Source: Giardia intestinalis (Eukaryota). Taken from it: 64,000 bases of DNA. Below, piece after piece: positions 38,331 through 56,540 of the stretch. A model generated the notes under the pieces. That model saw only the letters and a program-made list of their open reading frames with translations, searched no databases and had not been told where the DNA came from. The stretch lies in NCBI GenBank assembly GCA_000002435.2, contig CM018790.1; one strand, given 5' to 3'. Every line of letters begins with the position of its first letter. The first letter of the stretch is position 1. Made by a program: the position numbers and the translations under genes.

Positions 38331-38714
38331 ATGTTGGTAGGATTTCTCCTAGTTTTTGTGGTAACACAGGCCAACTGCGCACCAGAGCTGACCAGAGCGG
38401 GCTGCAAGACGTGTAGCCCCGACGGCCAGACCTGCACGGCATGCACCAACGATTCTCACAACGTACAGGTCGACGGGAAGAGCTGCGATGCCAACTGCCC
38501 GGAGCACTCCGCGGCGAACGGCCAGAAGGTGTGCGAGTGCGAGGGAGGATACGGCCCGGTCACCGGAGAGAACAGGTGCGAGCCTTCTAATACCAACAAG
38601 AGTAGCGGTCTTTCTACCGGCGCTATTGCAGGCATCGCTGTTGCAGCCGTCATTGTCGTCGGAGGCCTCGTTGGCTTCCTCTGCTGGTGGTTCCTCTGCC
38701 GGGGCAAAGCGTAG
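38331..38714 (+). CDS. VSP: Miniature variant-specific surface protein (127 aa); possibly a deletion remnant.
   Basis: True ATG at 38331. Signal peptide [16 protein letters not shown]; CxxC motifs (CKTC, CTAC); a [13 protein letters not shown]-like motif; TM segment; invariant ...[17 protein letters not shown]-terminus. GC-rich like VSP genes, but far shorter than typical VSPs. Confidence 0.65.
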
Positions 38715-38719
38715 ATGTA

Positions 38720-38734
38720 GACTTAGGTAGTAAA
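38720..38734 (+). terminator. Extended VSP 3' motif plus polyA signal (ACTTAGGTAGTAAAT).
   Basis: Exact match to the ACTYAGRTAGTRAAY consensus, 6 nt after the mini-VSP stop codon. Confidence 0.6.
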
Positions 38735-39070
38735 TGCTGTATGGACATGTGGGCGGTGCTCTGGCGTGATTGAGCAATGGGTGCCCGATCTCTGAGCTCT
38801 CGTGGTCCTCATTCATAGACTCCCGTGGCCTCTGCATGAGAGCATCCGTTTGCGGAATGCTGAAGAGGCGCGCCTGTGTGTCGCCATGGCAGGAGCGTTG
38901 TGTCTCCCATGCATGCCCTTGCAGTCGTGCGTCATCCCCGGGACCCCAGCTCGGATCCTCAGACTCCACGGCGCAGGGAGAGGAGTTGGCCCGCTCCTGC
39001 CATCGCCTCGTCTGCGCGGCGGTCGTGGCTGTGCGCACCCTTGTATGCACTGGGCAGTGGAAGGACAGCC

Positions 39071-40417: not shown

Positions 40418-40982
40418 AGCTCTGCAACGCCATCTGCACGTCAGCCCCGGGCAAACAGTCGGACTGTTCTCTTGGCCATATGCTCGCTGCTGCGGGGACC
40501 CCGAGCTGTTCTCACCTCGAGTCTTCGCAACAGCCCGGGCAGATGGGTGCAGAGGCAGTCACAGCGCGGCTAAGCCGTTGCCTGCAGGGCATTCTTCCAG
40601 CCAGGGGCAAGGTTTTGCAGCGAGACATGGCCTGCTTCAGACCATCAGGGAGCTCGCGCACGCAGACTACCGACCAGGTGGCTGCCGCCGTGCAAGGCGT
40701 GCGCTAAGATTGGAGTGGAGCGTTTACTGCCTTCCAAGCGGATGTGTTTCCTCAGCATGGTGGTCCGTGTGGTGGGAACGGATGCACACCATGGTTTGCG
40801 AAGGGGGCTCTAGGCTTCAGAATCCCAGTGATCACTTTGTTGCACCTTGCTACACATAGCAGGGGCGACGGAAGGAATCCAAGGGGTGCAGTCTTTGTAT
40901 GATGCGCCATCTGGATGCGCTGCAAGAGGCCCAGGAATTGCAGGCGTACTGCCACACGCGTTCTATGTGACCTGCAGTAAAA

Positions 40983-41618
40983 ATGCCGTCTATGGATGAC
41001 TTAGATCAATTCCTTCAGGAGTGCGACTGCGCCTTACTCCTCATGTCTGAGAAGAACACGAGCGAAGAGAGCGCAGGAAACTCAACTGAGTCTTCACAAA
41101 CAGATGATGAAGGCAGCGTGGACGAGGACGGCGTCACCACGCTTATGGAGGCAGCCAAAAGAAACGACGTGAAGGCGGTGAAGCGCTATATCCCTTATCA
41201 GGCAAGGATGGTGGCGAAGCTTGTCAAGGCAGGGAGAGTAGAGATATACGATGGGACGGCCCTGATGGTCGCTGCGGTGCTTGGACACACCAGAGTGGTG
41301 AAGCTGCTGATGAGGCACGAGCGTTGCATGAGGAGCAGTAATGAATGGACGGCCCTCATGTGGGCGGCACTTTTTGGCCGCACCGAGGTCGTGAAACTAC
41401 TCCTGGATGTTGAGGGAGGCATGCAAATAAACGGAGGTGTTACCGCCCTCACAGCTGCAGCAGGCTTTGGCCGTCTGGACTGTGTCAAGTTACTGCTGGA
41501 GAGAGAGAAGGACGTAGGCGGCGAGTCTGCTCTTTGTATGGCTAGTACACGAGGTCACCCCGAGGTGGCGTCTTTTCTTGAAAATAAGGGCATTAGGCTA
41601 GTGGATCCTTACCTGTGA
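40983..41618 (+). CDS. Short ankyrin-repeat protein (211 aa, ~4 repeats), 21.1-like.
   Basis: True ATG at 40983. Repeats with TALMxAA...GH..VVKLL follow an acidic N-terminal region. Confidence 0.6.
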   Translation: MPSMDDLDQFLQECDCALLLMSEKNTSEESAGNSTESSQTDDEGSVDEDGVTTLMEAAKRNDVKAVKRYIPYQARMVAKLVKAGRVEIYDGTALMVAAVLGHTRVVKLLMRHERCMRSSNEWTALMWAALFGRTEVVKLLLDVEGGMQINGGVTALTAAAGFGRLDCVKLLLEREKDVGGESALCMASTRGHPEVASFLENKGIRLVDPYL

Positions 41619-41964
41619 ATACTATCCAGAAAGCCCGTGAGTAAACGCGCTTAACTGTTGGTTGCATCCGACGGGGACTAGAGTCTCCCTCCAGCTGTGC
41701 AGGGGGACGGCTAGCCAATAGGGTGAAGTGATGGCTGTCAGTGGGGCACACAGCCACCCGTTTCCGCAGAGGCCAGGGGGCTGGCCTTCTCACCCTCGGT
41801 CAGCACTGGGACACCGGTGGGTGAAACGGTCGCACAGGTGGCCTTCTCGCTGCTGATGCAGAAGCCCTCCGCAAGCATTGGACCACTACAGATCTGTAGA
41901 CACAAACCCCTGTGGAAACGGATCGTTTCCAAAACTGTAGATTACCAAAATAATAAAACCAGGA

Positions 41965-44118
41965 TGCACGCTGCTTCGTCTGGATCTGCAACAATAGCTT
42001 TCAGTGCCCCGCAGTTCACCCCCAAGGAGCTCCACGAGGGGCTGGATGACGTGCTGGCCAAAGACCCCACAAGCACAATCTACTCTCTCGAAGCTATCTG
42101 GGCCTCGCTGTAAAGGTCATTCCACTAGGTTACCTGGACAAGAACAGTGCAGACGCCATCAGGACAAGGTTGACCACCCTCCCCGACCTCTCCCATCCGG
42201 GGGTCCTCAGGTACCACCAGGTGATTGAAGACGAGGGCCTCATCTACGTCGTCACGGACTGCCAAGACAAGACCCTCGAGCGCCCCCTCGCCGAGCACAA
42301 ACGAAGGAAGATCCCCGTCCCTATCACTATGATCCTCTCTGTCATGAAACAGATCGCCGCCGCCCTCGCCTACCTCCACAGCGTCAATGGGGCAAACACG
42401 AGAGGCCTCGTCCACTGCGACCTCAGGCCTGCCAGCATTCTTATCAACGCAGACGGAGAGCGCTTCATCATCGCCGACTTCGGCCTCTGTAAGGACGCCC
42501 TGTGGAGTGGGAACATTCTCATAGGAATAATGGCATACGTTGCCCCCGAGGTGCTCCTCCACAACGAGCCCAGCCCCGCCTCCGACGTGTGGAGCCTCGG
42601 GGTCATCCTCTACGAGCTTACTACTCTGAGGAGACTGGACTTCCTGAAAGGCAAGGAGCCGGCAGAGGTCTTCGTCGATGGGTGGAGGCCGGACCTGAGC
42701 GGTGTCACTGATGGCTTCATGCAGAATGTTCTGGAGAGGATCTTTGTACTAGAGCCAGAGAGGAGACCGACAGCCAGGGAGCTGCACGAGACGCTCACCA
42801 CATTCGACATCCCAGTTGGTGAGCTGGGGGTCAGTGCGTGATGCTGAGGTACAAGTGCGGATCCTTGAAGATTGCTTTGAATGGCGCTAACGCCAGGATC
42901 GCGCTTCTGGAAGAGGATGTTAAGATTAAATCCACTAGATCGACGCACTTGAAGACCAAAGTAAGGAGCATCTGGCCATGATTAAGGCACTGGAGAATAG
43001 GCTTGCACAGCTCAACATCAGAATAGCTACGACTGAGTCTCTGACCAGCCTCTTTTTGCTGCCCAGGCTGATGCGTGCCGCGCATACGAATAGCACGGAA
43101 ACCGTCTGGATGCTGCTTGAAGAAAGACTCGGCATCGACTAGTGCGACGAGCAGGGGCACGTTGATCCCGTCGAGTTGCTTGTTGGGGAGGAGAGGGGCC
43201 TCCAGGACAAGAATGGCTGGACTACCTGATGATCGCCACAGAGGAGGGCCACACAGAAGCTGCCTCCCTTCTGGTCCCATATGAGAAGGACCTAATCGAT
43301 GGCGAAGGCAAGACGGCCTTGGTGATTGCGGCAGAAGCAGAACATGGAACTGTGGTGGAGGCCATCGACCCAACCGATGAGAACGGCGTCACGGCGCTCA
43401 TGCGGGCTGTTAATAGAAACGACGTGGAGGCTGTAAAAGCACTCTTACCCATCCAGAGGGGGAGGAAAACATACAAAGAGGTCATAGCAAGCAGATGGTA
43501 CATGCGCAAAGGAATAGCTCTGATGATGGCTGCGGCAAGTGGACACGCAGAACTGGTAGAACTGCTAGCAGAGCACGAAAACGGAGAGAAAGTAGGCGGT
43601 TGGACCGCTCCCGTATTCGCGGCACGGTGCAATCGTTCCAATGACCCCCTGGTGGACTATCCCAGGCGCGTTGAGCTTTTGATGGAGTATGAGAGCAATA
43701 TCTCAGAGTAGACGGAGCTCATGTATGCAGCAGCACGAGGGCACGAAGGGAGTGTAGAGCTGCTCAAGCAAGAAACTTGTATGAAGAATAACGAGCATCA
43801 GACTGCCCTCACGTGGACGGTGTGCAATGATCATCCAGAGTGCGTCAGGATCCTACTGAAGGACGAAGGCGGCATGCAAGCGACCAAGGGGGGACCGCCC
43901 TTATGAACGCAGCGTATAGCAACACCGTGGAGTGTGCAAGACTTCTTAAGGAAAACGAGAAAGATCTGAAGACAACCTGCAGCTGCCATGGTTACTCGCC
44001 CGGTACCACTGCCCTCAGTATCGCTAAGAAGAAGGATCACAAAGAGATAGTAGACATCCTCCCAAACGAGATCTACTCTGCTTCATCAAGGTCGGCTTGC
44101 CAGCTCCTGTCCGAGTAA
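41965..44118 (+). pseudogene. Decayed NEK-type kinase fused to ankyrin repeats (Giardia NEK-ankyrin architecture), broken by frameshifts and an in-frame stop.
   Basis: Frame 2 holds kinase subdomains from GLAVKVIPLGYLDK (beta-3 Lys), through HCDLRPASILIN, IADFGLCKD and AYVAPEV to DVWSLGVILYEL (42098-42841). The Gly-loop region upstream lies in another frame and is truncated. Downstream ankyrin repeats run in three frames (43229-43711, 43721-43906, 43840-44118). A TAG at 43709-43711 interrupts a repeat (...NISE*TELMYAAARGH). A 1-nt loss near 43190 disrupts NGWTALMIATEEGH. A frame switch occurs at a G6 run near 43890. Confidence 0.55.
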
Positions 44119-44840
44119 ACCCGTCCAGAGTCCGAAGCTCGGATGCCGCCCACTCTGGAGAAGAGCCTTGTGCATCCCGCCTGGGAGCCGTTGGGTGCTC
44201 CACTATGCGCTCCGGGGCGTCCCTTCCTCTGGCTGGCTTGGGTCAACCATCGTCTGGCATCTAGTGAGCACCTGCTGTCCCGGGCCTTGCGTCGGTCACA
44301 GCGATCTAGTCTCGAGAGCAATTGACTCTGGCCATGTACTCCGGAGTAGCTTTGTGGTGCTGATGCTCTACGACGGAGATTGCACGCCACGACCCCGGGT
44401 GCCTACCCCGTTCCTCGGGTGCCTCCTTGTCTCCTCGTGGATTGTGCCGTCGGTCCCGAGCATGATCAGAGGGTGCGCTCCCCGTACGCCTCTATCTTTG
44501 AGTCATAGTACGCGTTCGTGGATGCCGGCGGAGTACTCCCATGCGTTGTGTCGGGGAAGAGGCCCATCTCTCTGCTCACGGACCGCAGAAGTGCTCCGTC
44601 ACCCAGCACGAGACCGTGTCGACGCTCACCCTGTGCAGTGCGTCTGGCTCAGTGACGTGTGGGCTGGTCCATCCTCACACCGCACACTTGGGGGTGATGC
44701 TTCGGTCTGTCGAGGCGTCGTCCAAAGCATCACGAGCGATCAAGACCGGTTCACCGAGGCCGTCTCTCTACAACCAGCACCCGTCTATTCGAGGGTGTCA
44801 GGTACTGCCAGCTGCTGTGGCAGACACCCGGCAGGTGGTC
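44067..44840. repeat. Copy A of a ~0.7-kb direct repeat (partner at 55527-56260).
   Basis: Colinear similarity starts ~15 nt left of the shared cttcatc(a/g)aggtcggcttgccagctcctgtccgagtaaa. It is ~85% identical overall. A 216-nt core (44313-44528) is 100% identical to 55774-55989. Indels are not multiples of 3, so it is non-coding. Confidence 0.7.
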
Positions 44841-45333
44841 CAAGTCACCACTCTCCGGTGCGGGCAGGATCAGTCCGCCTCTGTCAGCCAAGCACTCCAG
44901 GGGCCCCATCTCTTGTCGAGGAATTCATATGGGTCACGTGTGGGTCCATCTTGACAAGCGGGGCGAGTGATTAGTGCCATCACTAGCTTCGGTCCTCCGT
45001 TGCCCCCTCTATCGCCTCGGGGGAGGAGGCATAAATCTTCCTCGTCAGAAGTAGACGGCATCCGACCTTCGGATTTCGGATTCTGGGTCTCAGCTGATGA
45101 ACAAGCGAGAGACTGCCAGCCTAGTGTGGCAGTGGATTGCACGAGGGGATTTACTCAGGGCTCATTTGAGACTATAGACTAAACAAAAGGCAGTACAGTT
45201 TCTTGAAGAAAACTATGGTTATAGGCCAAAAGGCAGACAGGCCAAGGCTACATTATATTAACATCTTGGGTCAGTACTGGGGGTTCTAGGATCCTAGAGG
45301 ATTAGAGGTCAGAATAAATACTTTAAAAAACAC

Positions 45334-48300
45334 ATGTCCAATACTAGTGCTGTTCTTTCTCAAATGTCCCCTCCTACTGGAGTATCTACGGCAGCACAAT
45401 TTTCCCTTGAGGGTCAGGAGTATCTGGCGGTGGTGCGTGTATCTGTGCTGCACATTTATAAGGTAAAAGATGATAGAATACAGTTCATTATCTCACAAAG
45501 CTTCGCAGAACGAATTTTGCAAGTGTTTCCCCGTATCTTCATTGACGAGCTTTCAGGAATGGAGAAACTCCAGCTTTTACTCTGCTTTGATTCCCACAAA
45601 GCTGTCCTGTACGCCCTAACTGGCCTTCGTCTGTCTCAGCTTATGATCTACGACTTTACTGTTACTGCAGAAGAAGCATTAGCCCATGAGCAGGCGTCTT
45701 ATGCGCTGTATGATAACTCTATTCTAGTCTGTATCTGTGGCACAATTCGTACTTATATTGGACTTGCCCAGCTTGATACAGGCTCCATCATCCTAATACC
45801 TTTCGTTGGTGAGAAGATTATTGATGTGCAGTGCCTTTCTCGCTCTTCTACTAACGGCCCTCAGCTGGGTATTCTAACTAGCTTTCCTGTCCCTGCACAA
45901 AGGTGGGCGCGTAACGCTCGTGGAGCGCATCTTCACGTCTATACCATAGAGTATAACGGTGCCGGATTGTCTTCTGAAAAGTCATCTCAGAGAGATGCGT
46001 TTACGCTGGCCCTGCAGCATAAGGTCTCCAACCTTCCCTCAGATAGCTATAGCCTTACGGCTCTTGAGGATCCGCTTAATCTATTTTTAGTCCATTCCAC
46101 ACGAGTTTTCGTATTAGTTAATCCAACTGAAAGGACTTTTCAACCGCTACACTTTCGTTTCTCCTTCCTTCCAGAGGAACAGACGTGCAGTAGTGCATAT
46201 ATAAAAAGCGCCATATCACAGTGTGCATCATTGTCAGGGTCTCATCTTTCTCCGTTTGCTGAGAAGTTTACTGCTTCTTCAGATTTGAAGCTTGTGAGCA
46301 ACAAGCTATTATCTCTACATAACGGCATACTTACAACAGAGAAAACACAATTTAATTCTGTTCACCGGGCTACTCTACCCATTGCACCCACACTCATGCC
46401 TGCTCACCCTATCAAAGGAGGTCTGGAGTACCCTTATTACGGATTCAGCATAGACCGACCAGATGAGCCTGTTTGTTTATCACAAATTAGCAACGTTTTG
46501 GGTGGGTTTCCTGCGTTAGATCTACACTTATATATGGAAGCATGCGGTTCTACGCATATCGATAATCTACTCCGATTTGAAAATCGAACTAGAAGTAGCA
46601 TTACTCCAGGAGAGTACATCAACATGTCAGCGTTCGGCAAGTATCCGTCGAATTTGGAGTACCTTGGCCCTCGGTCAGATGTGTTTAATTACCTACAGAT
46701 TCCCCCGTTAAATGGTACGCGTGTGTGTTATTTGAAAAGCTCTACTACCATGTTGAAAGGTTGGCACAACATCTTAGTGATGGATAGCAGGGGTTTATCA
46801 TTTATTATGCGATTTCATAGCGATAACGGGGCGATTACTAAGCAGAGCTTGGAGTTGTATCCTGTTTGTCTTTGTGATCGCAACGCAGCGATAACGACAG
46901 GTTCTCCTGCGATGCTGTTTCCGCCTTCCGTGATCTTGGCTCTTTCAGCAGCCTCTACAAAGAATACTCCACTGGGATACGAACTGGAACGCAGATATCG
47001 CGCAGTAGCGGAACTCCCAGCTGACGTTAGGCCTAGAGAAGATAAGGTACAATGCGACGTCCAACATCCATATCATGATCTTTTTTCTGTACGGGTATTC
47101 GTTGGCTCTCTTGTTGAGGACTCTCTCTTGTGTATGATAACGATGTCAACTGCAACACCAAAGCAAGGATACTACTATGATTACAGGCCGTGCCCTCTAC
47201 CAGGTGAGACGAACCATGCAAATATAACTAAGCTTGCACAAGCCTTGTATGCCTCGTCCTCCATAACTGAGAGCACCGCGCCGCATTTATCTTCTCTTTC
47301 ATCTCCGTTAGTTACTTCCGAGTCCAGTGCGGAGACAAGAAAAATCCAGATCTTTGGTCAGAGCTTCAATGTAGAAAACTATCATAGAATTAGGATCTTT
47401 GCTAATGCAAAACTGCTCAAGCCTTTTTCGGGAAGCATACTCCGTCTTATCGAGCGTCAAACTACTCATCTTCCAACATATGACACTGTGATGCACGGGC
47501 TTGTCTTTCCATACGCAATTCTCCCCTCCATGTCTTCTGTTAAGGATGCTTCCGCCAAGCCCGTCGGTTTGGGTGAGCAGAAGGATGCAAATGCTCGACC
47601 TCGCCTTCATCTGCTTCACGAGGCCGGTGCTATTTCCATGGTTAGCTCTTACGCGACATCTACGACTTCTTCGCAGTTTAAGTATGCTCAGAAGATGAAC
47701 AGACTAGACGACAGAGCAACATCTCTCTCAGATAGCTACGTCTGCGCTTTTTACCATATGAATCCAGATGCAAACAACCATCGCTCATTGAGATCTATGT
47801 TTTCTGGGGCTACGTCTTTCAATATTCTCGTCACATCGCGGGATGGAACAAACGTAATGTCCATTACCAAAGACACCGATCTTTTCAGCTCTACGTCGAC
47901 GAAGAAAGAACTGTCAATACACCCAGTGAGCACGCCAGCAGTACTTCATCAACCAACCATTCTAGCATTTACCCTCGCATGCGGCGTTTCTGTTCAAGTG
48001 TGCCCTCTAGAAATGGTGCTCTTTGCATACGATGGCCTGGAGAAAGTCTCGGTATCAATTGGCGAGCTAGCGTCGTCTTGTAAACCGCAGATGCTTCAGG
48101 ATTGCTCCGAACATTTGGCGATCTTACATGCCGAAAGCGACTATGTGAGATTTCTGTTTTTGACTACTTCTACTGCAATCTTCTGTGTACCCTTGCCTAC
48201 TTCTAAGGCAGATCTTGTGGGATATCGTACGCCTGTTAGCGAAACTGCGTTGTGCATTTATACCATGACCTCAATAGAGAACTTTTGCTCATCGGCCTTC

Positions 48301-51300
48301 TTGTCTGCAAAGAACTCTGAACCATTATTGGCATACTTGTCTTTGTCAAGAGTAGAGGTACTTGCTGCAGACTATCTCAGCTCTGAGGAAGCATCACGTG
48401 TTTCGAAGGATGTGTTTATGAAGAGAATTCACACCTTAGTTTCGACGATTAATGACGACCATACATCATTAGGTTGCTTATTTGCTGTGACTTCTAACGC
48501 AAGGATAATCTTTATTCTCCTACTAGAACACAAAACAACACAATCCCTCCTATATTTACCTCTCTGGGTTTGGCAGGTATATGAGCAGAACCTTCTCGAA
48601 AAGGATCACAAGAGCAAGATCTCTTTCCGCACTAACACACACATTCTCTCACTACTGCCGTACATATGCACTTATGGGGTTTTCGAATGCTGTACGTCAG
48701 CGGAATCAACAAAAGATATAACTGGAAACATACTGATGGGGCGCCAGGTTAGTCCTCAACCTTGTCAATCGTCAGACATGCTTCTCCCATACAACACAGC
48801 GTACATGACTGCTCTTTTCGAGACACAGCGAGACACTATAGCCTCTGAAATGACTCCAGATAGATCTCTCGCTAAGCATACAAACCACTTGAGCACTGAG
48901 ATTAACACTAGGCGCATTTCTAGCATTTATGTGTCATCAACACCCATCATTTCTCAAGTCTGTACCCCTGTCCCTTCACAATTTGATTCTACAGAGGAGA
49001 ACATGAAGAGTACTGAAATAAGCACAAACATTACGCTATTCATTGCGTACTTTGGTGGGCATACGTCTGTACATCGGATTGGGCCACAATTAGATGCCCA
49101 GCATAAATTGTGTGCTACGCTGGGAGACAGTATAGCTCTTACCACTCAACCGATATCAACCAAATCCGTGGCGACAAGATCCATTGATTCCTCTTGCAGC
49201 TATGAGTACTCAGACTTGTGGTCAGACGTTGTCTCCCTTTCTTTTCCTACTAAAGAAAAGGTAGTCACAAAGTCCGTGGCCCTTAGAATTGGTCGTCCGT
49301 TTCGGCCGATCTACCTTGTTGATGCTGGGCCTCAGCAAGAAAGCCTCTCCTTGCCATTAATATTCATTGGCACACCACGCCCCACAACGGGTGCGACACC
49401 TGTGTCTTGTATTGCAGTCCCCAATCTGTTCGGGTCATATAGCTTGCACATCCTGGGTCGTACACAGTCTTATCTTCTTTTGAACAAACGGTATTCAATA
49501 CCCATCCAACATCCAGTGAGGCAGATGCTTCCTATTTGCTACATTCCTGGTTGTTCTTTCCCAGCGTGTCTAAATCTCATTGATTCAAGTCTCCCCATAT
49601 CAATGATGACACAGGGAACATCTCCACATGTCATGAGCAACTTTACAAACATCCCACACGTCTATCTACACAGAAATGGAATAGAGCTAGGCAGCATAGA
49701 AAACATTTACTTTGGAACGCACTTGCTTTACAAGGATGTTTGTGAGAAAGAGTACAAGGACACGGCCAAGGGCTGCTGCTTCCTGAATCGCCGCCTGACG
49801 CACTCAAGAAAAAATATAATCTACAATCTGCTTTACTTAGCATCTTTTGGAAATAATACACAAATGCCCGTACGCACCATACTGAATCTTCCACCAAGCC
49901 TGAAGGGAAGTAAGATGTGTTACAACGTGGAGAGCGATGCATTTGCAGTGGTGTCACACATCGAGCGCTATGAGGTCCGAAATCCCCGATCGATCGCTAA
50001 GGATGAAGTTGCTGGGATAAAGGTTTCAGAAGAGATCAAGGCGCTAAGGGACTACCATCGCATAGGTGACATGACAGAGGAGGATGCCCTCCTGAGTGCA
50101 CAAAAGGATGGAGATCAGGCGCAGCTCGAAGCCTATACGCGCTTCAAAGAGGAAGGACTCGTAAGAGCAAAAGAGATCATGCTCGCCAGTCCGCCAACTT
50201 ATAACTCCTTCATGAAAGTCAAGTTCGAAGCCCTTCTACTTATTGTTAACGATCCATCAATGAGCAAGTATCGTGTATGCGACTATTACTTGTATGATTT
50301 AAAACGATACGAGACGTCTACAACACTTGTGTCTGACACAATAGATTCCCAGTTCCCTCGCCGCTTTGGTAGTGCCTGGAGGCACGAGGGTGGAATATCC
50401 CGTGATGACTTCGGCTGCATAAACAGGCGTAACTACCATAACTCACAAACTAGTGAGCAAACCAGTTCCAAGCCTCGTGAAATCCTTAGGTCAGGAACAA
50501 AAGAGCTTATTCTGCTGGGCACTGGATACCTACTTGGGCCAGATGAAAAGTGCTATGGAACATGCAAGATATTAGCGCTTGAAAAGACTGACAAAAACGA
50601 TGACATCAAGGCTAACAAGTGGAATTTGGGGGCATGGTCGTCTTTCTTTGCATTCAGGCTAATTACACAAGAGGAATTCCAAAATGTAATAACAACTGTG
50701 CGCTCATTCCCTGCAGCGCGAGTTATTCTTATCGGAGAAAACAAGCGCATATGCGCATATCATTTAGAGGATAGCTGCCGTCTCACCTGCTGCAGCGTTT
50801 TTGAGCGTTGCGGTTACATATCAAATATCTCACGGTTTAACGAGTTTATTTCTGTCTCTGATCTTATGTTGCGCAACGGTCTGTACGTGTTTAGAAGCCG
50901 CGGAAGCAGAAACAATCCTATCAGCTACTCATCCAACGATCTTCCTATATATGCGAGTGACTTCTTGGTCTCCGGGGTGACCAAGGAGATGAATGTTATT
51001 GGAGTTAGTTTGCATCGGATAGTCTGTCTCTTATCATATCCGTACACAAAAACCAGCCAGAGGCTTGTTTCTCAGTTAGCAGTGCAAAGCAGCTGTAAGA
51101 TACCATGGACTTGTGTGTCGATCCTCCAAGCTGCGGGATGGATCAACGCCCCTGAGGTAGAGAGTAATGACAGGCCGACTAAGAGCAGTCAACTGACTAG
51201 TAATGCCAACTGTATTCTTGCGTGTGCCGAGGGCGCCGTTTTGGTGGCAGTACCTGTGCCAGCAGAAGTAGATCAGTTCATAGAGATGATGGGGTGCTTT

Positions 51301-51507
51301 AATCTATTTGATATAGGTCCACACTGCATTGCAAGAAAAAGAAGAAGTTTTGATAGGAGGCTTGTATATGATTCTGCCAGGCTAATTATATTACAAACGC
51401 TTGACAATACTTCCAGAGATTACTCTGGCCTCGGCCCGAAAGCGGCCAACATAAGGGGCTTTAATAACCTGATTTGGAGACTCATGAGCGATGCTGTATG
51501 CTTGTGA
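45334..51507 (+). CDS. Giant hypothetical protein (2057 aa).
   Basis: True ATG at 45334, immediately preceded by aataaatactttaaaaaacac. 6.2-kb uninterrupted ORF. No domain recognised. Confidence 0.65.
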   Translation: MSNTSAVLSQMSPPTGVSTAAQFSLEGQEYLAVVRVSVLHIYKVKDDRIQFIISQSFAERILQVFPRIFIDELSGMEKLQLLLCFDSHKAVLYALTGLRLSQLMIYDFTVTAEEALAHEQASYALYDNSILVCICGTIRTYIGLAQLDTGSIILIPFVGEKIIDVQCLSRSSTNGPQLGILTSFPVPAQRWARNARGAHLHVYTIEYNGAGLSSEKSSQRDAFTLALQHKVSNLPSDSYSLTALEDPLNLFLVHSTRVFVLVNPTERTFQPLHFRFSFLPEEQTCSSAYIKSAISQCASLSGSHLSPFAEKFTASSDLKLVSNKLLSLHNGILTTEKTQFNSVHRATLPIAPTLMPAHPIKGGLEYPYYGFSIDRPDEPVCLSQISNVLGGFPALDLHLYMEACGSTHIDNLLRFENRTRSSITPGEYINMSAFGKYPSNLEYLGPRSDVFNYLQIPPLNGTRVCYLKSSTTMLKGWHNILVMDSRGLSFIMRFHSDNGAITKQSLELYPVCLCDRNAAITTGSPAMLFPPSVILALSAASTKNTPLGYELERRYRAVAELPADVRPREDKVQCDVQHPYHDLFSVRVFVGSLVEDSLLCMITMSTATPKQGYYYDYRPCPLPGETNHANITKLAQALYASSSITESTAPHLSSLSSPLVTSESSAETRKIQIFGQSFNVENYHRIRIFANAKLLKPFSGSILRLIERQTTHLPTYDTVMHGLVFPYAILPSMSSVKDASAKPVGLGEQKDANARPRLHLLHEAGAISMVSSYATSTTSSQFKYAQKMNRLDDRATSLSDSYVCAFYHMNPDANNHRSLRSMFSGATSFNILVTSRDGTNVMSITKDTDLFSSTSTKKELSIHPVSTPAVLHQPTILAFTLACGVSVQVCPLEMVLFAYDGLEKVSVSIGELASSCKPQMLQDCSEHLAILHAESDYVRFLFLTTSTAIFCVPLPTSKADLVGYRTPVSETALCIYTMTSIENFCSSAFLSAKNSEPLLAYLSLSRVEVLAADYLSSEEASRVSKDVFMKRIHTLVSTINDDHTSLGCLFAVTSNARIIFILLLEHKTTQSLLYLPLWVWQVYEQNLLEKDHKSKISFRTNTHILSLLPYICTYGVFECCTSAESTKDITGNILMGRQVSPQPCQSSDMLLPYNTAYMTALFETQRDTIASEMTPDRSLAKHTNHLSTEINTRRISSIYVSSTPIISQVCTPVPSQFDSTEENMKSTEISTNITLFIAYFGGHTSVHRIGPQLDAQHKLCATLGDSIALTTQPISTKSVATRSIDSSCSYEYSDLWSDVVSLSFPTKEKVVTKSVALRIGRPFRPIYLVDAGPQQESLSLPLIFIGTPRPTTGATPVSCIAVPNLFGSYSLHILGRTQSYLLLNKRYSIPIQHPVRQMLPICYIPGCSFPACLNLIDSSLPISMMTQGTSPHVMSNFTNIPHVYLHRNGIELGSIENIYFGTHLLYKDVCEKEYKDTAKGCCFLNRRLTHSRKNIIYNLLYLASFGNNTQMPVRTILNLPPSLKGSKMCYNVESDAFAVVSHIERYEVRNPRSIAKDEVAGIKVSEEIKALRDYHRIGDMTEEDALLSAQKDGDQAQLEAYTRFKEEGLVRAKEIMLASPPTYNSFMKVKFEALLLIVNDPSMSKYRVCDYYLYDLKRYETSTTLVSDTIDSQFPRRFGSAWRHEGGISRDDFGCINRRNYHNSQTSEQTSSKPREILRSGTKELILLGTGYLLGPDEKCYGTCKILALEKTDKNDDIKANKWNLGAWSSFFAFRLITQEEFQNVITTVRSFPAARVILIGENKRICAYHLEDSCRLTCCSVFERCGYISNISRFNEFISVSDLMLRNGLYVFRSRGSRNNPISYSSNDLPIYASDFLVSGVTKEMNVIGVSLHRIVCLLSYPYTKTSQRLVSQLAVQSSCKIPWTCVSILQAAGWINAPEVESNDRPTKSSQLTSNANCILACAEGAVLVAVPVPAEVDQFIEMMGCFNLFDIGPHCIARKRRSFDRRLVYDSARLIILQTLDNTSRDYSGLGPKAANIRGFNNLIWRLMSDAVCL

Positions 51508-51516
51508 GGGTATTTA

Positions 51517-51523
51517 AGTGAAC
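51517..51523 (+). terminator. PolyA signal AGTGAAC after the 2057-aa gene.
   Basis: AGTRAAY consensus lies 10 nt after the TGA stop. Confidence 0.4.
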
Positions 51524-51534
51524 ATACTGTGTTT

Positions 51535-53379
51535 CTAATTTTTCTTTAACGTTGGAGGCAAGGGAATGTCGCGCAAATCCTTTCTAGTACACTCTAGCGA
51601 GAAGTTGTACGGAGTAGTTGTACTGGCACCCGCAAGTTTCACTTGCTTACGAGTATCAATAAAGAGAGAGTCGTAGCTCTGATCAGAAATAACATCACTT
51701 AATCCCTTCTCGCTTGATGTTTCATTGCTGGATAGAGCATGATAATTCAAAGACTTAAATCCAGATCCAGAGTCATTGCGTGGCGTTGATGAGTGTATGG
51801 GCGTCACCAGAAAGCGTCTACCGTGTGTACTTGTGCTATTTTCCGGCAAAATGACCACTTTCGGTGTCGCAGCAAGAACACTATTCTTGAGGATTGGTGA
51901 TTGAATTGTTTCTCGATTAACTCGTACACTCCGGTAACCTATATCTCCAGGAACATTGAGCGCAAAAGGCACAAGTGGCGACATGAGGGAGGCCTTCAGA
52001 GGAGAAAGTGCATTAGTCTGGGAGAGATCCTGATCTTCCCACCCAGCTTGCATTCCGTCTTTGCAATAAAAAATGAATGCATCCTGAGGCATAAAATCAT
52101 CCGTCTGGGCACCAACTGGCAGGACCTGGTAGGCCTCGACAGAGCTTCCCGCCACGGAGGAGAATAGAGTGCCAGTACAATCATTTTCACCATCTCCAAT
52201 GATGGGTTGGTTACTAACTACTATCCTTATCATACGACGGCCATGGAATAATCGTTTTTTCAATTGAATCTCTGCTGGAACATTCATGGCTCGGCCTCTA
52301 AGATACTTTGGCATATATAGACTAGTTGGGGTCAGGGCAGTGAATGCACGGTGATGAGCCCAGCGATGACTTGTTGTAGGACTAACTAAGTATGGATCGT
52401 GTACGTGTCCAGCCTTTGGGGTGCATAAGTTTGTGGTGTTTAGTGTGGTAACGGGCTCTGCATGTCTCATAAGCTCTGAAAACTCATAAGCAGAATGAGC
52501 ATCAAGCAGGGTAGGATCCCCATAAGCTGAAAGCATAAGGGAGTCCAGAACAGGATCCTGAAACGCTGGGGTTGCAGTGCTGGTGGAAATTGCAACATCA
52601 ACGGATGGTGAAGTCACTTGAAAAAGCGTAACACCATCGTGCTCTGAAAACTGTTGGTCCGTAACCGGGCCCGAGTTATCTGTGGCCGAGGTTCCATCCG
52701 CAGAAACATCCAAGAGAAGTTCGTCATAGTTTGAAATATGCATTGCGTCGCTAATTGGCCTAAATATATAGGTCTTAGCTGGAAACTGCTGAATTGTATG
52801 AGAAGAATTAGTCCCGGAAAGCACAGCAAAGGAGGCTGACGTGCCGCTGATATCTATAAACCGTTGAGCAATCGCATACGTGTACTCGTGAACGGTTCCA
52901 GTTAGTGGACCGCGACCCAACGAGTCGACGGGGTTTAATGTCGATCCGGTGGAGAGTCGCCAGGGCACCTCCTGGGTGTTGACATGTAAAGCAGATTCAT
53001 TGTATGGGGCGATAGACATAAAGTGCCGTAGAATAGATCCTTGATAACTATCGATAACGAGTGTACTAAGACTAGAAGCAACACTACTAATAGAGTGTGT
53101 GGAAGCGAGCTGGATGGATCCAGCCTGTTGTGAGGATGGATGGGTGGAAGCAGAAGACTCTGCAAGACATACTGATGAGGGTGATGCCGATGCATTGTTA
53201 TTACAATTTGCATCAGTGCTGCAGACAATTCCATGCTCGATACGCGTTTCATTACCAGGCCTAGTTGGTGTGGGAATTAGATACCTTACTGGAGCGTTCA
53301 GCCTCTGTGCATCCCACTGCATGATCTGCTCTTTGTTGAGTAGAAAGAAATCGAGCCTTGTGCAGGGGGTCTGGTGCAT
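51535..53379 (-). CDS. Hypothetical Ser/Thr-rich protein (~614 aa).
   Basis: The listed start at 53409 is TTG; the first ATG is at 53377-53379. No homolog recognised. Confidence 0.5.
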   Translation of the reverse strand: MHQTPCTRLDFFLLNKEQIMQWDAQRLNAPVRYLIPTPTRPGNETRIEHGIVCSTDANCNNNASASPSSVCLAESSASTHPSSQQAGSIQLASTHSISSVASSLSTLVIDSYQGSILRHFMSIAPYNESALHVNTQEVPWRLSTGSTLNPVDSLGRGPLTGTVHEYTYAIAQRFIDISGTSASFAVLSGTNSSHTIQQFPAKTYIFRPISDAMHISNYDELLLDVSADGTSATDNSGPVTDQQFSEHDGVTLFQVTSPSVDVAISTSTATPAFQDPVLDSLMLSAYGDPTLLDAHSAYEFSELMRHAEPVTTLNTTNLCTPKAGHVHDPYLVSPTTSHRWAHHRAFTALTPTSLYMPKYLRGRAMNVPAEIQLKKRLFHGRRMIRIVVSNQPIIGDGENDCTGTLFSSVAGSSVEAYQVLPVGAQTDDFMPQDAFIFYCKDGMQAGWEDQDLSQTNALSPLKASLMSPLVPFALNVPGDIGYRSVRVNRETIQSPILKNSVLAATPKVVILPENSTSTHGRRFLVTPIHSSTPRNDSGSGFKSLNYHALSSNETSSEKGLSDVISDQSYDSLFIDTRKQVKLAGASTTTPYNFSLECTRKDLRDIPLPPTLKKN

Positions 53380-53509
53380 TTTTTTGACTTCGATTGGTTC
53401 GCCATACAAAATGGTTTGTAACCAGTTTGGTTAGTCATATTAGTATCTTCTACTCCTGTAGCTTACATGTTGTTCAAAAGCTGTCAATTCTCGTATTCAT
53501 GGCCAAAAA

Positions 53510-54508
53510 ATGAACCGAAAACGCTCCAGCGTAAGCGACCTTGTTGTCGCTATTGCTAAAATGCTCAGTGGCCGCACAGAGCAGGCATCCTTCAAGGAGG
53601 CGGATGCAGAAGCCCTTAAAGTGAGCATATCTCAACTTAAGTCCCAGGTAACATCACCCAATCCACAGCTCCAACGTGCTCATTACAACGAGTTTACCCG
53701 GGTTATAATGACTGATAACACGTTAGTAGATATTGTTGGCGGCCTTGCTTGGCTAGATTTTGATTCTCGCAAGTCCCTTATTTCATTGGTTGCTGGTCTT
53801 GCCCACCGTGCATCCAGTGGGGATCCTGCAGATGATGCTGACCCCGCTCTTCTCGTGAATTATATTCTTAGCCATCAAGACCTCCTTGACGTCCTTCTAG
53901 ATGGCTATAAACTTCCACAGCCCTTTCACGTGACCACAATCCTGTGTGAGTATATTAAAGTTTACTCCATAGCCGAGACCATCCTACTATTCTGTGCTAA
54001 AGAACAGTTCCAGCGAATCTTCTCTGCAATGAGTAGCCCGAATTTTGATGTTTCTTCTGACGCTTCTGTGGTGCTGAAGGATTTATTAACAAAGCATGAA
54101 CAGCTTACGGCTACATTTCTTGACCAAAATCCTCAGTTCTTTACTTGGTTCTGTACCCTGCTGCATTCCTCTAATTACGCCACGCGCCGCTTCAGTTTAA
54201 ATTTGCTGAGCACATTGCTTCTTAACCGCGCAAACTTCAATGCGATGTCACGCTTTGTGGAATCTGATGAGAATTTGAAGTTGATCATGAGACTTCTCAA
54301 GGATGACAGCGCTGTAATTAGGTTTGAAGCATTTCACGTGTTTAAGGTATTTGTGGCCAATCCAAAGAAAACAGAGCCCGTTCACAAGATCCTGAAGCGG
54401 AATAAGGACAAGCTTATAGAGCACCTTCTGAGCTTCACTACTGAGACTAATTCAAGTGACTTTGAGGAAGAAAAGGGCTTCATAGTTGATAGCATCTCAG
54501 AGCTGTGA
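53510..54508 (+). CDS. MO25: MO25/CAB39 (Hym1) scaffold protein.
   Basis: True ATG at 53510. [104 protein letters not shown] closely track human CAB39 ([104 protein letters not shown]). Confidence 0.85.
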   Translation: [332 protein letters not shown]

Positions 54509-54538
54509 CTGATACTTTATAAAGCGAAGGTTATACTC

Positions 54539-55546
54539 TCAAATTACTTTACTGCTCATTGACACCCCACTCTGCTTTCCTACTTCGTTGCTATCTGAGT
54601 CGCATTCGTCTGTACGGTCTCCAATATCCGGGTTCTGAACCATGAGCTCCTTATCTTCGCTGTTATCGTTCTTACTCTTCTTTCTCCTGTCCCTAAACGT
54701 GTATATAATTAATGCAACCGTCAAGACAAATAGCTGTACAGTCGAAGAAGTCATTGTTAAGTAGGTCATCCAATTAGCCTTAGATATGATAGCAAAAACG
54801 AACATACATAAGACGACAATGAACTGGATACTTGAAAGTAAGACAGACATGCTTCCTGGTGATTTGACTTTACATGTGTGGTAAATTTGGGGACTGAACT
54901 GTGCCAGGTTAAAGAAAAGGGATGTGATGGACAGTGCCAAAGTAAATCCACGGACCCATGGGGTACACATACCATAGAAGATCACAATTACAGTAGCTGC
55001 TGCGATGATGGATAGCATAACACCTAAAAATAGGAAGAAAGCAAGTACATGACACTTAGCTCTTTGAACATCTCCTTGATCACTGGTAGGCTCGGCTTCA
55101 GATGAGGTTGCATGATTGGTCTTGACCTTTGACACATATAATAAACGGATAGTGAGTGCATACCACCATATGAACCCCAATAGGAAGGCAGAGCTCTGCA
55201 GAAAGGGGATCATGTTTGAATAGCATAAGCCTGGGTTTTGAGGACAGGCGAAAATTTGAGGAAGGGTGGTGATATAGAATACACTAGTGGAAAATAAGAG
55301 AGAGTATGAAGCAACGTGTAAAAAGATGAACGAAATACTGTAAACGGATCTTGTTCGGTACATCTTCACCAGCTGAGGAATATATGAGATAACGATTAAA
55401 GCTAGGAGAATGCTGTTGAATATCGTAACAGGAAGGCTTATATTAGCTAGATAAGGTGTGTAGTCGTATGGATCTATAAACGTGCCGTCTTCAATATAGC
55501 AAGGGTTACGTATCATTTTAATAAAGCTCAATTTGCTCTTCTTCAT
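54539..55546 (-). CDS. PQ-loop repeat 7-TM protein (cystinosin/LCT-type transporter family).
   Basis: True ATG at 55544-55546. About seven hydrophobic helices and two PQ-loop motifs (ISYIPQLVKMYRTRSV and AQFSPQIYHTCKVKS). Charged C-terminal tail. Confidence 0.55.
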   Translation of the reverse strand: MKKSKLSFIKMIRNPCYIEDGTFIDPYDYTPYLANISLPVTIFNSILLALIVISYIPQLVKMYRTRSVYSISFIFLHVASYSLLFSTSVFYITTLPQIFACPQNPGLCYSNMIPFLQSSAFLLGFIWWYALTIRLLYVSKVKTNHATSSEAEPTSDQGDVQRAKCHVLAFFLFLGVMLSIIAAATVIVIFYGMCTPWVRGFTLALSITSLFFNLAQFSPQIYHTCKVKSPGSMSVLLSSIQFIVVLCMFVFAIISKANWMTYLTMTSSTVQLFVLTVALIIYTFRDRRKKSKNDNSEDKELMVQNPDIGDRTDECDSDSNEVGKQSGVSMSSKVI

Positions 55547-56260
55547 CGAGGTCGGCTTGCCAGCTCCTGTCCGAGTAAATCCGTCCAGGATCCGAAGCTC
55601 GGATGCCGTCCACTCTGGAGAAGAGCCTTGTGCCTCCTCGCCCGGGAGCCGTTGGGTGCCCCACTATGCGCTCCGGGACGTCCCTCCTCTCTGGCCCGTC
55701 GGGGTCAACCATCGTCTGGCATCTAGTGAGCACCCGTTGTCCCGGACCTGCCGTCGGTCACAGCAGTCTGGCCTCAGAGCAATTGACTCTGGCCATGTAC
55801 TCCGGAGTAGCTTTGTGGTGCTGATGCTCTACGACGGAGATTGCACGCCACGACCCCGGGTGCCTACCCCGTTCCTCGGGTGCCTCCTTGTCTCCTCGTG
55901 GATTGTGCCGTCGGTCCCGAGCATGATCAGAGGGTGCGCTCCCCGTACGCCTCTATCTTTGAGTCATAGTACGCGTTCGTGGATGCCGGGGGACAGCTCC
56001 TATGCGCTGGTATTGGGGGAGAAGTATGGTCCTCTGCTCATGGATCGCAGAGGTGCTCTTGCAGGCGGTCCGTCACCCAGCACGAGATCATGTCGGCGCA
56101 TCATTCTATGCAGTGCGTCTGGCTCAGCGACGTGTGGGCTGGTCCATCCTCACACCGCACACTTGGGGGTGATGCTTCGGTCTGTCGAGGCGTCGGTCCA
56201 GGGTCATCGACTGCTGGGACCCTCCACCATCAGGGTGGTAGACCAAGGAGAGGCGCCACT
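55527..56260. repeat. Copy B of the ~0.7-kb direct repeat (partner at 44067-44840).
   Basis: It begins at the start codon and first ~5 codons of the PQ-loop gene and extends across that gene's upstream region. The 216-nt core 55774-55989 is identical to copy A. The right end lies ~280 bp from the 3' end of the VSP gene. Confidence 0.7.
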
Positions 56261-56521: not shown

Positions 56522-56536
56522 GTTTACTATCTAAGT
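56522..56536 (-). terminator. Extended VSP 3' motif plus polyA signal (ACTTAGATAGTAAAC on the minus strand).
   Basis: Exact ACTYAGRTAGTRAAY match, 5 nt downstream of the VSP stop codon at 56541-56543. Confidence 0.6.
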
Positions 56537-56540
56537 ACAT

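What the first reader, a model, noticed from the sequence alone, without database searches (positions are those of the whole stretch)
44067..56260. Two ~0.7-kb direct repeats with a perfectly identical 216-nt core flank an 11-kb four-gene segment
Copies at 44067-44840 and 55527-56260 are in the same orientation and ~85% identical overall. An internal 216-nt block (44313-44528 and 55774-55989) is identical base for base. The repeat is non-coding: indels between the copies are not multiples of 3, and the ORFs it generates (44168-44974, 55533-56282, 44073-44390, 55518-55733) are frame-discordant. Copy B covers the upstream region and first ~5 codons of the PQ-loop gene. Copy A preserves the same ATG-AAG-(A/C)AG-AG start, but there it abuts ankyrin-gene debris instead of a gene body. 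A core this much better conserved than its flanks could mean recent gene conversion. It could also mean a functional non-coding element, such as a shared promoter or ncRNA, or a recombination substrate that moved or duplicated the enclosed block. The enclosed block carries the 2057-aa gene, the 614-aa gene, MO25 and the PQ-loop gene. Copy B sits ~280 bp from a VSP gene.
Basis: seen in the sequence. Interest (0 to 1): 0.65.

Follow-up and report, generated by a model that had tools for sequence, protein, structure and literature searches.

The report
Gene-converted dispersed repeat pair in Giardia
Two copies of a non-coding, GC-rich repeat found in Giardia's variable VSP/kinase "islands" happen to bracket four housekeeping genes, and their identical core is a footprint of recent copy-correction (gene conversion), not a hidden gene, RNA or promoter.

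Summary
The repeat is real, with small corrections. Copy A is 44071-44724 and copy B is 55531-56200, about 89% identical. The exact core is 214 nt (44315-44528 = 55776-55989), not 216.

The window is Giardia intestinalis assemblage AI, WB-like. The repeat belongs to a low-copy dispersed family with at least 8 copies in the AII isolate DH. Family members lie in GC-rich, non-syntenic islands that carry VSP and NEK-kinase/ankyrin genes.

The first 48 nt of the repeat are the last 15-16 codons, stop codon and AGTAAAC signal of a NEK-kinase gene. The rest shows no coding periodicity, Pfam or Rfam match, or conserved RNA structure.

The 11-kb block is ancestral. Assemblages E and B have it without repeat B, and B has no left island.

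The decisive comparison is with DH. DH copies A and B share a different, 314-nt perfect tract. The orthologous cores of WB and DH differ by about 14-16% plus 19- and 11-nt deletions, while neighbouring genes are 98-99% identical. This is concerted evolution by repeated ectopic gene conversion.

The promoter, ncRNA and "moved the block" options are not. The "first five PQ-loop codons" come from an obsolete gene model. Interest is low to moderate.

The parts
44071..44724 (+). Repeat copy A (654 nt, 62% G+C, A-poor on + strand)
   Evidence: present at the same place in DH/AII (L019) and in three metagenome assemblies
55531..56200 (+). Repeat copy B (670 nt), starting about 15 nt upstream of the true PQ-loop ATG
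   Evidence: present in DH/AII (L019, L006), absent from P15 (E) and from assemblage B contig L011
44315..44528 (+). Exact 214-nt gene-conversion tract, copy A side
   Evidence: exact extent; permutation p<5e-6; A=B within each genome, orthologues differ
55776..55989 (+). Exact 214-nt gene-conversion tract, copy B side
44626..44720 (+). Second near-identical tract (96% to 56101-56195). In DH the same stretch is only about 62% alike between A and B
42170..44118 (+). Frameshifted NEK-kinase/ankyrin pseudogene. Kinase fragment at 42170-42838; ankyrin fragments at 43229-43711, 43721-43906 and 43840-44118. Its last 15-16 codons, TAA and AGTAAAC signal (44071-44122) form the left end of the repeat
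   Evidence: Pfam; 87% homology to DH paralogous locus L003 4102-6641; an intact 769-aa NEK paralogue ends ...EIYSISSRQVCQLLSE, against ...EIYSASSRSACQLLSE here
44725..45086 (+). Right extension of copy A, not shared with copy B but shared with family members L005, L008 and L009
56201..56452 (+). Right extension of copy B, shared with L003 6641-6894. It resembles sequence downstream of other VSP genes (70-74%)
37753..45157 (.). Left variable island (GC-rich: VSP remnant, ankyrin ORFs, NEK pseudogene, repeat A). Absent in assemblage B, where TTL abuts the 2057-aa gene. Different content in P15
45157..55521 (.). Conserved syntenic block: CPSF_A-like gene 45334-51507 (+), hypothetical 51535-53409 (-), Mo25 53510-54508 (+), PQ-loop 54539-55516 (-)
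   Evidence: 87.6% to P15, 77% to assemblage B, 98.3-99.1% to DH for the three genes compared
56541..58724 (-). VSP gene of the right island (727 aa). It is reduced to a 247-aa remnant in DH

Best explanation
The two copies are members of a low-copy, dispersed, non-coding repeat family. The family lives in the variable VSP/NEK-kinase/ankyrin islands of Giardia assemblage A.

The family unit is the extreme 3' end of a NEK-kinase gene (last 15-16 codons, stop, polyadenylation signal) plus about 0.6-1.7 kb of the sequence that followed it. This unit has been spread by segmental duplication and has decayed differently in each copy.

Copy A still follows its NEK pseudogene. Copy B is a truncated copy wedged between a VSP gene and the PQ-loop gene. 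The copies bracket the 11-kb housekeeping block only because islands formed in the two intergenic gaps on either side of it.

The copies are 11.46 kb apart, in direct orientation and about 89% alike. The homologous-recombination repair machinery therefore uses one as template for the other. These non-crossover gene conversions erase differences over a few hundred bases, giving the 214-nt perfect core. This has happened repeatedly and independently in the AI and AII lineages, and third-party family members have also served as donors. The element itself performs no function.

Shown: dispersal, NEK origin of the left end, absence in other assemblages, and the concerted-evolution pattern.
Inferred: the duplication history and the repair mechanism.
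For: (1) Dispersed family. The + strand ORF of copy B matches 20 'hypothetical proteins', including 5 from G. duodenalis DH. blastn finds 73-87% homologues at five unrelated loci (L003, L004, L005, L008, L009). With two further DH ORFs and DH copies A and B, that is at least 8 copies per genome.

(2) Organism. The window's ORFs are identical to WB proteins.

(3) The block is ancestral. Homology to P15 and to assemblage B covers only 45157/45323-55521. Assemblage B has TTL directly next to the 2057-aa gene. P15 has an unrelated 1.1-kb spacer in place of repeat B.

(4) Concerted evolution. In the 4-way alignment, 53 informative sites, about 45 of them in the core, group winA+winB against DH-A+DH-B. 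Only 15 sites support orthology, and nearly all of these lie at the outer edges and in the flanks. The perfect A=B run is 214 nt in the window and 314 nt in DH, each p<5e-6. WB versus DH cores are 84-86% identical over the alignable part and also differ by 19- and 11-nt deletions. By contrast, genes are 98.3-99.1% identical.

(5) Both core types also occur in other DH paralogues: the deleted type in L004 and L008, the undeleted type in L003, L005 and L009. Donors outside the pair have therefore been used.

(6) NEK origin of the left end.

(7) No coding or RNA signal. Substitutions fall 104/89/105 by codon position (p=0.45). Pfam finds nothing. Rfam finds nothing. Folding z-scores are +0.53 and +0.15. 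Covariation equals the shuffles.

(8) Literature. Synteny breaks at VSP/NEK/Protein 21.1 islands are described (PMC3091692, PMC7000408). Gene conversion in GC-rich, VSP-linked regions of assemblage A is described (PMC12669663).
Against: - Only two independent lineages (AI-like window; AII DH, which equals the metagenome contigs at 99.9%) could be compared.
- On both sides of the homogenised core, about 15 sites and a 12-nt deletion group winA with DH-B and winB with DH-A. A single non-reciprocal conversion does not explain this.
- The + strand carries stop-free stretches longer than dinucleotide shuffles (p about 0.002-0.003). I attribute this to a frame-independent depletion of stop triplets, but it is not fully explained.
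- What the 0.6-1.7 kb downstream sequence originally was remains unknown.
- No expression data could be examined.
Confidence: 0.8

Rival explanations
1. The repeat is the remnant of a transposable element. It could be the non-coding 3' part of the dead non-LTR retrotransposon GilD, or an unknown non-autonomous element. Copies would share one end and be truncated at the other.
For: Copies share a roughly common left end, within about 50 nt of the AGTAAA motif, and have variable right extents from 650 nt to at least 1.7 kb. L004 is a solitary copy between two ordinary genes with no VSP or ankyrin gene beside it. Retrotransposon fragments are known at Giardia synteny breaks (PMC3091692).
Against: The shared left end is the coding 3' end of a NEK kinase, not an element terminus. 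No poly(A)/poly(T), terminal repeats or target duplications were seen at the junctions. Family ORFs gave no Pfam match of any kind, so no reverse-transcriptase or endonuclease match. By eye, the six-frame translation of L005 up to 9.4 kb shows no RT motifs. Left and right boundaries are not sharp.
Confidence: 0.1
2. The core is a functional non-coding element, such as an ncRNA gene, a shared promoter or a regulatory element. It would be kept identical by selection.
For: There is a 214-nt perfect core. Short invariant blocks occur across all eight aligned family members, for example GGGTGATGCTTCGGTC. Copy B lies immediately upstream of the PQ-loop gene.
Against: The same core differs by about 14-16% plus two deletions between AI and AII at orthologous positions, while genes differ by about 1%. 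There is no Rfam match, no thermodynamic signal and no covariation above shuffles. The PQ-loop orthologues in E and B work without it. The AT-rich initiator TTTATTAAAATG lies outside the repeat. Copy A faces no gene.
Confidence: 0.05
3. The + strand ORFs (268 and 249 aa; annotated as hypothetical proteins in DH) encode a real protein family.
For: Stop-free stretches exceed dinucleotide shuffles (p about 0.002-0.003). In the family consensus one + frame is open throughout. DH annotators called genes there.
Against: The open frame differs between copies. Frameshifts of +1, +1 and -1 fall within 140 nt between A and B. There is no codon-position periodicity, and the putative third position is the least variable. 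Stop depletion is frame-independent. There is no Pfam match. No long ATG-initiated ORF exists, and the ATG-started ORFs of the window are not in the protein collection, so they are not annotated in WB.
Confidence: 0.03
4. The repeats are the scars of a rearrangement that transposed or tandemly duplicated the enclosed 11-kb block.
For: Direct orientation flanking a discrete block. The 'swap' pattern hints at reciprocal exchange between the copies.
Against: The block has the same gene order and the same neighbours (TTL on one side, a VSP on the other) in assemblage B, and the same order with a VSP beside the PQ-loop gene in assemblage E, without repeat B. The copies differ in their outer parts and derive from different family subtypes on their right sides.
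Confidence: 0.02

Closest known systems
Low-copy repeats (segmental-duplication remnants) undergoing interlocus (ectopic) gene conversion / concerted evolution
   Same: Paralogous copies in one genome are more alike than orthologous copies between lineages. Identical tracts of a few hundred bp have sharp edges. The flanks follow orthology. The sequence is GC-rich. Direct repeats about 11 kb apart on one chromosome are a classical substrate.
   Different: Here the copies are non-coding debris rather than genes. The organism is a tetraploid, binucleate protist. One of the lineages (AI) is reported to be asexual, so the events are presumably mitotic.
Non-syntenic VSP / NEK kinase / Protein 21.1 (ankyrin) islands of Giardia genomes (PMC3091692; PMC7000408)
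   Same: GC-rich islands with VSPs, NEK/ankyrin genes and pseudogenes interrupt conserved gene arrays. They differ between assemblages. 6.9% of the WB genome is duplicated, mostly in short stretches.
   Different: Those papers describe gene families and synteny breaks. To my knowledge from the papers searched, they do not describe this particular non-coding family or its concerted evolution.
AI-AII 'gene conversion' tracts in GC-rich, VSP-enriched regions of assemblage A (PMC12669663)
   Same: Same organism. Non-reciprocal conversion is inferred in GC-rich, VSP-linked sequence.
   Different: That study infers transfer between sub-assemblages with median tracts of about 3.3 kb. Here conversion is between paralogous copies within one chromosome, with tracts of 0.2-0.3 kb.
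Girep RNAs (PMC2817412)
   Same: Giardia non-coding repeats associated with VSP genes.
   Different: Gireps are tandem arrays of 7-10 units of 222-228 nt with similarity to VSP coding repeats. This family is not tandem and has no similarity to VSP coding sequence.
GilD dead non-LTR retrotransposon (Arkhipova & Morrison 2001, cited in PMC7000408)
   Same: An old, degenerate, chromosome-internal dispersed repeat of Giardia at synteny breaks.
   Different: No reverse-transcriptase remnant was found next to any copy. The left end is a NEK gene end. A direct comparison with the GilD sequence was not possible with these tools.

Membership tests
Interlocus gene conversion / concerted evolution between paralogous repeats | Paralogues within a genome are more similar than orthologues between genomes in the converted tract | tested here: met
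   53 sites group A+B within each genome, about 45 of them in the core. Only one orthology-type site falls within about 100 nt of the tract, and none inside it. Per-50-nt identities are A-B 100% in both genomes against 34-92% between genomes
Interlocus gene conversion / concerted evolution between paralogous repeats | Unique flanks and outer repeat edges follow orthology | tested here: met
   winA-DH A is 90-100% and winB-DH B is 96-98% in the flanks, against about 30% for A-B. Continuous 95% homology runs from 43507 to 56715 between the window and L019
Interlocus gene conversion / concerted evolution between paralogous repeats | Identical run longer than expected from the distribution of differences (GENECONV-type test) | tested here: met
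   Runs of 214 nt and 314 nt. 0 of 200,000 permutations reached either
Interlocus gene conversion / concerted evolution between paralogous repeats | Independent events in separate lineages (different tract sequence and boundaries) | tested here: met
   The window tract is 44315-44528. The DH tract corresponds to about 44255-44568 and carries 19- and 11-nt deletions
Structured non-coding RNA family | Match to a curated RNA family | tested here: not met
   Rfam 15, E<=1, 43000-57500: the only hit is a chance SAM riboswitch hit inside the PQ-loop gene
Structured non-coding RNA family | Folding energy below shuffles; compensatory covariation | tested here: not met
   z-scores +0.53 and +0.15. Covariation term is -1.4 of -126 kcal/mol. 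6 pairs have double changes against 5.3 +/- 1.6 in shuffles
Structured non-coding RNA family | Discrete transcript | not testable with these tools
   No RNA-seq, CAGE or small-RNA data available
Girep tandem-repeat RNAs | Tandem array of 222-228-nt units similar to VSP repeat units | tested here: not met
   Tandem Repeats Finder finds nothing in either copy. tblastn of VSP and all other locus ORFs against the family gives only self hits
Non-LTR retrotransposon (GilM/GilT/GilD) | Reverse transcriptase / endonuclease ORF or its remnant | tested here: not met
   No Pfam hit on family ORFs. No RT motifs seen by eye in six-frame translations of L005 5.7-9.4 kb. No RT domain is listed for called genes around any copy
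Non-LTR retrotransposon (GilM/GilT/GilD) | Sequence similarity to the published element consensus | not testable with these tools
   No Giardia repeat library or genome BLAST available. The paper is not held
Non-LTR retrotransposon (GilM/GilT/GilD) | Common 3' end with variable 5' truncation | tested here: inconclusive
   The left ends cluster within about 50 nt and the right ends vary. However, the common end is a NEK gene 3' end
Protein-coding gene | Conserved reading frame, codon-position bias of substitutions, known domain | tested here: not met
Promoter of the PQ-loop gene | Conserved upstream of orthologues | tested here: not met
   P15 and assemblage B orthologues have unrelated upstream sequence. 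The A/T-rich initiator lies in the 15 nt outside the repeat
NEK-kinase gene 3' end (origin of the repeat's left 48 nt) | In-frame continuation of a kinase + ankyrin ORF ending in the family's C-terminal tail | tested here: met
   Pkinase fragment at 42170-42838 and ankyrin fragments up to 44118. An intact 769-aa paralogue aligns to its last residue and ends ...EIYSISSRQVCQLLSE. The same TAA ends the annotated ORFs in L003 and L019

The most novel reading that the evidence does not exclude
The segments on both sides of the homogenised core are 'swapped' between lineages: copy A of the WB-like genome matches copy B of DH, and vice versa. This includes a shared derived 12-nt deletion. The pattern could record a reciprocal exchange between the two direct repeats. 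Possible routes are a double crossover, or excision of the 11.46-kb block as a circle followed by re-integration at a different point in the repeat. If so, the locus would be a natural reporter of crossing-over and NAHR-type copy-number change of four housekeeping genes in Giardia, including in the supposedly asexual AI lineage. The equally simple alternative is two independent conversions from third-party family members.
Probability: 0.15. Interest if true: 0.5.

Novelty: new member of a known kind. Interest (0 to 1): 0.25.

Why it matters
The finding removes a candidate "functional non-coding element" and explains it with ordinary genome dynamics.

It also gives a clean, small-scale example of recurrent ectopic gene conversion in Giardia's variable islands. 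Island sequence differs by 9-22% between AI and AII, while adjacent genes differ by about 1%. Between-isolate "recombination" signals in such regions can therefore come from paralogous conversion.

Practically, three points follow:
- The old 335-aa PQ-loop model is too long.
- DH 'hypothetical proteins' of this family are almost certainly spurious.
- The direct repeats predict possible deletion, duplication or circle formation of an 11.46-kb block that could be looked for in long-read data.

Tried and rejected
- Rfam scan: nothing relevant.
- Pfam on all repeat ORFs and on DH/ENA homologues: nothing.
Six-frame translations of L005 and L008 were inspected by eye only.
- Exact-motif scan of JGI metagenome contigs for a conserved 25-mer: no Giardia copies.
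- Girep hypothesis: rejected after reading PMC2817412 and finding no tandem repeats.
- VSP, ankyrin or other gene-derived origin of the core: tblastn of 182 ORFs from all loci gave only self hits.
- tRNA/SINE idea, prompted by a tRNA-like D-arm at the edge of the L005 copy: ARAGORN finds no tRNA in or beside any other copy.
- Literature searches for Genie/GilD descriptions did not yield usable sequence information.
- Assembly artefact: rejected. The arrangement is reproduced in the DH assembly and in metagenome assemblies from four independent samples. An independent WB-like Logan contig breaks 17 nt inside repeat B and about 60 nt beyond the extended copy A.

Full report
**1. The observation**

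The repeat finder and MAFFT confirm two direct copies with a start-to-start spacing of about 11,461 nt. blastn aligns 44076-44724 with 55536-56200: 666 columns at 89.5% identity.
- Homology begins at about 44071 / 55531 and stops abruptly at 44724 / 56200.
- The longest exact match is 214 nt, 44315-44528 = 55776-55989.
- With 62 difference events over 655 aligned positions, no permutation out of 200,000 gives a run that long.
- A second tract, 44626-44720 / 56101-56195, is 96% identical.
- No further copy exists in the window.
- The copies are 62% G+C and A-poor on the + strand (14.5% A). The enclosed block is 45% G+C.

**2. Organism and gene models**

The VSP Pfam domain identifies Giardia. 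The window's PQ-loop ORF is identical to GL50803_15292, and its Mo25 is identical to the WB protein. The window is therefore assemblage AI, WB or WB-like.

The current WB model of the PQ-loop protein (325 aa) and the P15 and GS-type orthologues all start at the second Met, MIRNPCY.... That Met is preceded by the typical A/T-rich initiator TTTATTAAAATG. The real ATG is at 55516, and copy B begins about 15 nt upstream of it. It contains no PQ-loop codons.

**3. What the left end of the repeat is**

Upstream of copy A lies a frameshifted NEK-kinase pseudogene. It has a kinase-domain fragment at 42170-42838 and ankyrin fragments up to 44118. Its reading frame runs 48 nt into the repeat and stops at TAA (44116-44118), inside AGTAAAC. 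From my own knowledge, this matches the Giardia polyadenylation consensus AGTRAAY.

A search of 1.8 billion representative proteins found an intact 769-aa kinase-ankyrin protein that aligns to its very last residue. It ends ...EIYSISSRQVCQLLSE, against ...EIYSASSRSACQLLSE here.

Copy B carries the same 15-16 codons and stop, but no kinase gene. It is a truncated copy.

**4. A dispersed family**

The long + strand ORF of copy B hits 20 predicted proteins. All are Giardia 'hypothetical proteins' from isolate DH (AII) or unnamed ORFs from metagenome contigs.

Fetching their contigs showed 73-87% DNA homologues at five unrelated loci:
- L003: after a NEK/ankyrin pseudogene and before TFIIB.
- L004: alone between two ordinary genes.
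- L005: next to a VSP fragment.
- L008: in a 5-kb gene-poor stretch.
- L009: next to a RING-finger gene.

With two more annotated DH ORFs (P0003 and DHA2_150180) and DH's own copies A and B, the family has at least 8 members per genome.

All members share a ~500-nt core (44220-44724), but the family is mosaic:
- The left 150 nt come in two subtypes, 65-70% alike.
- Copy A's right extension (to about 45086) is shared with L005, L008 and L009.
- Copy B's right extension (to 56452) is shared with L003 and resembles sequence downstream of other VSP genes.
- In the second subtype a decayed stop/AGTAAA-like motif is also visible at the left edge.

**5. The block is ancestral; the islands are not**

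- P15 (assemblage E) is homologous to the window only from 45157 to 55521 (87.6%). It has an unrelated, 43% G+C, 1.1-kb spacer between its VSP and the PQ-loop gene.
- An assemblage B contig is homologous from 45323 to 55519 (77%). Its tubulin-tyrosine-ligase gene (window 35428-37641) lies 268 nt from the 2057-aa gene. A Cys-rich, VSP-like sequence (judged by eye) lies about 110 nt from the PQ-loop gene.
- Window 37753-45157 is therefore a 7.4-kb island added in the A lineage. P15 has a different island there, with only faint family matches. Repeat B is likewise A-specific.

This fits the published picture of conserved gene arrays interrupted by VSP / NEK / Protein 21.1 islands (PMC3091692; PMC7000408). 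The repeats did not move or duplicate the block.

**6. Why the core is perfect**

The orthologous DH locus (L019) is 99.9% identical to contigs from four metagenome samples. It carries both copies in the same places.

In a four-way alignment of window A, window B, DH A and DH B:
- The unique flanks follow orthology at 90-100%.
- Inside the repeat, 53 informative sites group A with B within each genome, about 45 of them in the core. No orthology-type site falls inside the tract, and only one lies within about 100 nt of it.
- DH copies A and B share a 314-nt perfect run (equivalent to about 44255-44568) that has 19- and 11-nt deletions relative to the window. The window pair shares its own 214-nt run.
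- Between genomes the core is only 84-86% identical over its alignable part, whereas the 2057-aa gene, Mo25 and PQ-loop are 98.3-99.1% identical.

A selectively constrained element would show the opposite pattern. This is concerted evolution by gene conversion, occurring independently in both lineages.

Both core types also occur in other DH paralogues: the deleted type in L004 and L008, the undeleted type in L003, L005 and L009. At least one lineage therefore imported its core from outside the pair.

The islands as a whole are 9-22% diverged between AI and AII. This is far more than the neighbouring genes and is consistent with frequent ectopic exchange. Gene conversion in GC-rich, VSP-linked sequence of assemblage A has been reported (PMC12669663).

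**7. Tests for function**

Coding:
- Substitutions across eight family members fall 104/89/105 on the three codon positions (p=0.45). The putative third position of the open frame is the least variable.
- A and B differ by +1, +1 and -1 indels within 140 nt.
- Pfam finds nothing.
- No ORF from any fetched locus matches the core.

RNA:
- No Rfam match.
- Folding z-scores are +0.53 and +0.15.
- The RNAalifold covariation term is -1.4 of -126 kcal/mol.
- Counts of compensatory pairs equal the shuffles.

Other:
- No tandem structure, so this is not a Girep.
- Promoter: the orthologues lack the repeat, the initiator lies outside it, and copy A faces no gene.

One loose end remains. The + strand has fewer stop triplets than dinucleotide shuffles in all frames, and its longest open stretches are unusually long (p about 0.002-0.003). 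This explains why DH annotators called genes there. Because the depletion is frame-independent and the frames are not conserved, I read it as compositional.

**8. An unexplained detail**

Flanking the homogenised core on both sides (about 44170-44255 and 44569-44650), about 15 sites and a derived 12-nt deletion group window A with DH B, and window B with DH A. There are two possible explanations:
- A reciprocal exchange happened between the two direct repeats in one lineage.
- Each lineage had a different copy overwritten by a third-party donor. Window B's right part resembles L004.

The data cannot decide between these.

**9. Verdict**

The finding is real and well described, but it is ordinary biology. 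It is a pair of low-copy repeat remnants, each a NEK-gene 3' end plus downstream debris, in Giardia's variable islands. Recurrent ectopic gene conversion homogenises them. It is a new, apparently undescribed member of a known kind of feature.

A transposon-fragment origin (GilD or similar) remains possible at about 10%, because no Giardia repeat library could be searched.

Noticed in passing
L005 8366-8850 (DH contig AHGT01000015) and L005 5835-5849: A tRNA-Ile(GAT) gene at 8777-8850 is preceded by four tandem units, each containing the first 46 nt of the tRNA. This is a partial-tRNA tandem array. A 15/15-nt tRNA D-arm-like fragment also sits at the left edge of that locus's family copy.
   Followed up: partly
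window 43507-44070, 44725-45333, 56201-56540 versus L019: Island sequence is only 91%, 91% and 77.7% identical between the WB-like window and DH, although adjacent genes are 98.3-99.1% identical. The islands evolve about 10-20 times faster than the genes, presumably through ectopic exchange.
   Followed up: partly
window 56541-58724 (-): The 727-aa VSP is represented in DH and in related metagenome contigs by a 247-aa remnant. Window 56715-58294 has no counterpart there.
   Followed up: no
window 54539-55546 (-): The 335-aa ORF equals the obsolete model GL50803_15292. Orthologues and the current WB model start at the second Met (55516). In DH and the metagenome contigs the gene caller extended the ORF to 408-420 aa into repeat B.
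   Followed up: yes
window 38594-38719 and 56536-56661: Inverted 126-nt repeat (75%), formed by VSP 3' ends. A VSP remnant in the left island faces the opposite way to the intact VSP of the right island. Window 37993-38737 is also homologous, inverted, to the VSP-fragment region of L003.
   Followed up: partly
window 44050-45000 and 55500-56300, + strand: Stop-free stretches of 306 and 260 codons exceed 1000 dinucleotide shuffles (p about 0.003 and 0.002). Stop triplets are depleted in all three + frames in every family member, without any codon periodicity.
   Followed up: yes
window ~44170-44255 and ~44569-44650 (and the matching parts of copy B): 'Swap' pattern: window copy A resembles DH copy B, and window copy B resembles DH copy A. 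This includes a 12-nt deletion shared by window A and DH B only.
   Followed up: partly
L001 (Logan SRR10063828 contig), equivalent to window 45149-55547: An independent short-read contig of a WB-identical sample ends 17 nt inside repeat B. Its other end is at 45149, about 60 nt beyond the furthest family homology of copy A's right extension. Something repeated or heterozygous also lies near 45149.
   Followed up: no
window 39071-40417 (-), 40089-40859 (+), 38349-39287 (-): Several long ORFs in the 60-68% G+C part of the left island have no Pfam match. They are probably further compositional ORFs or unrecognised pseudogenes.
   Followed up: no
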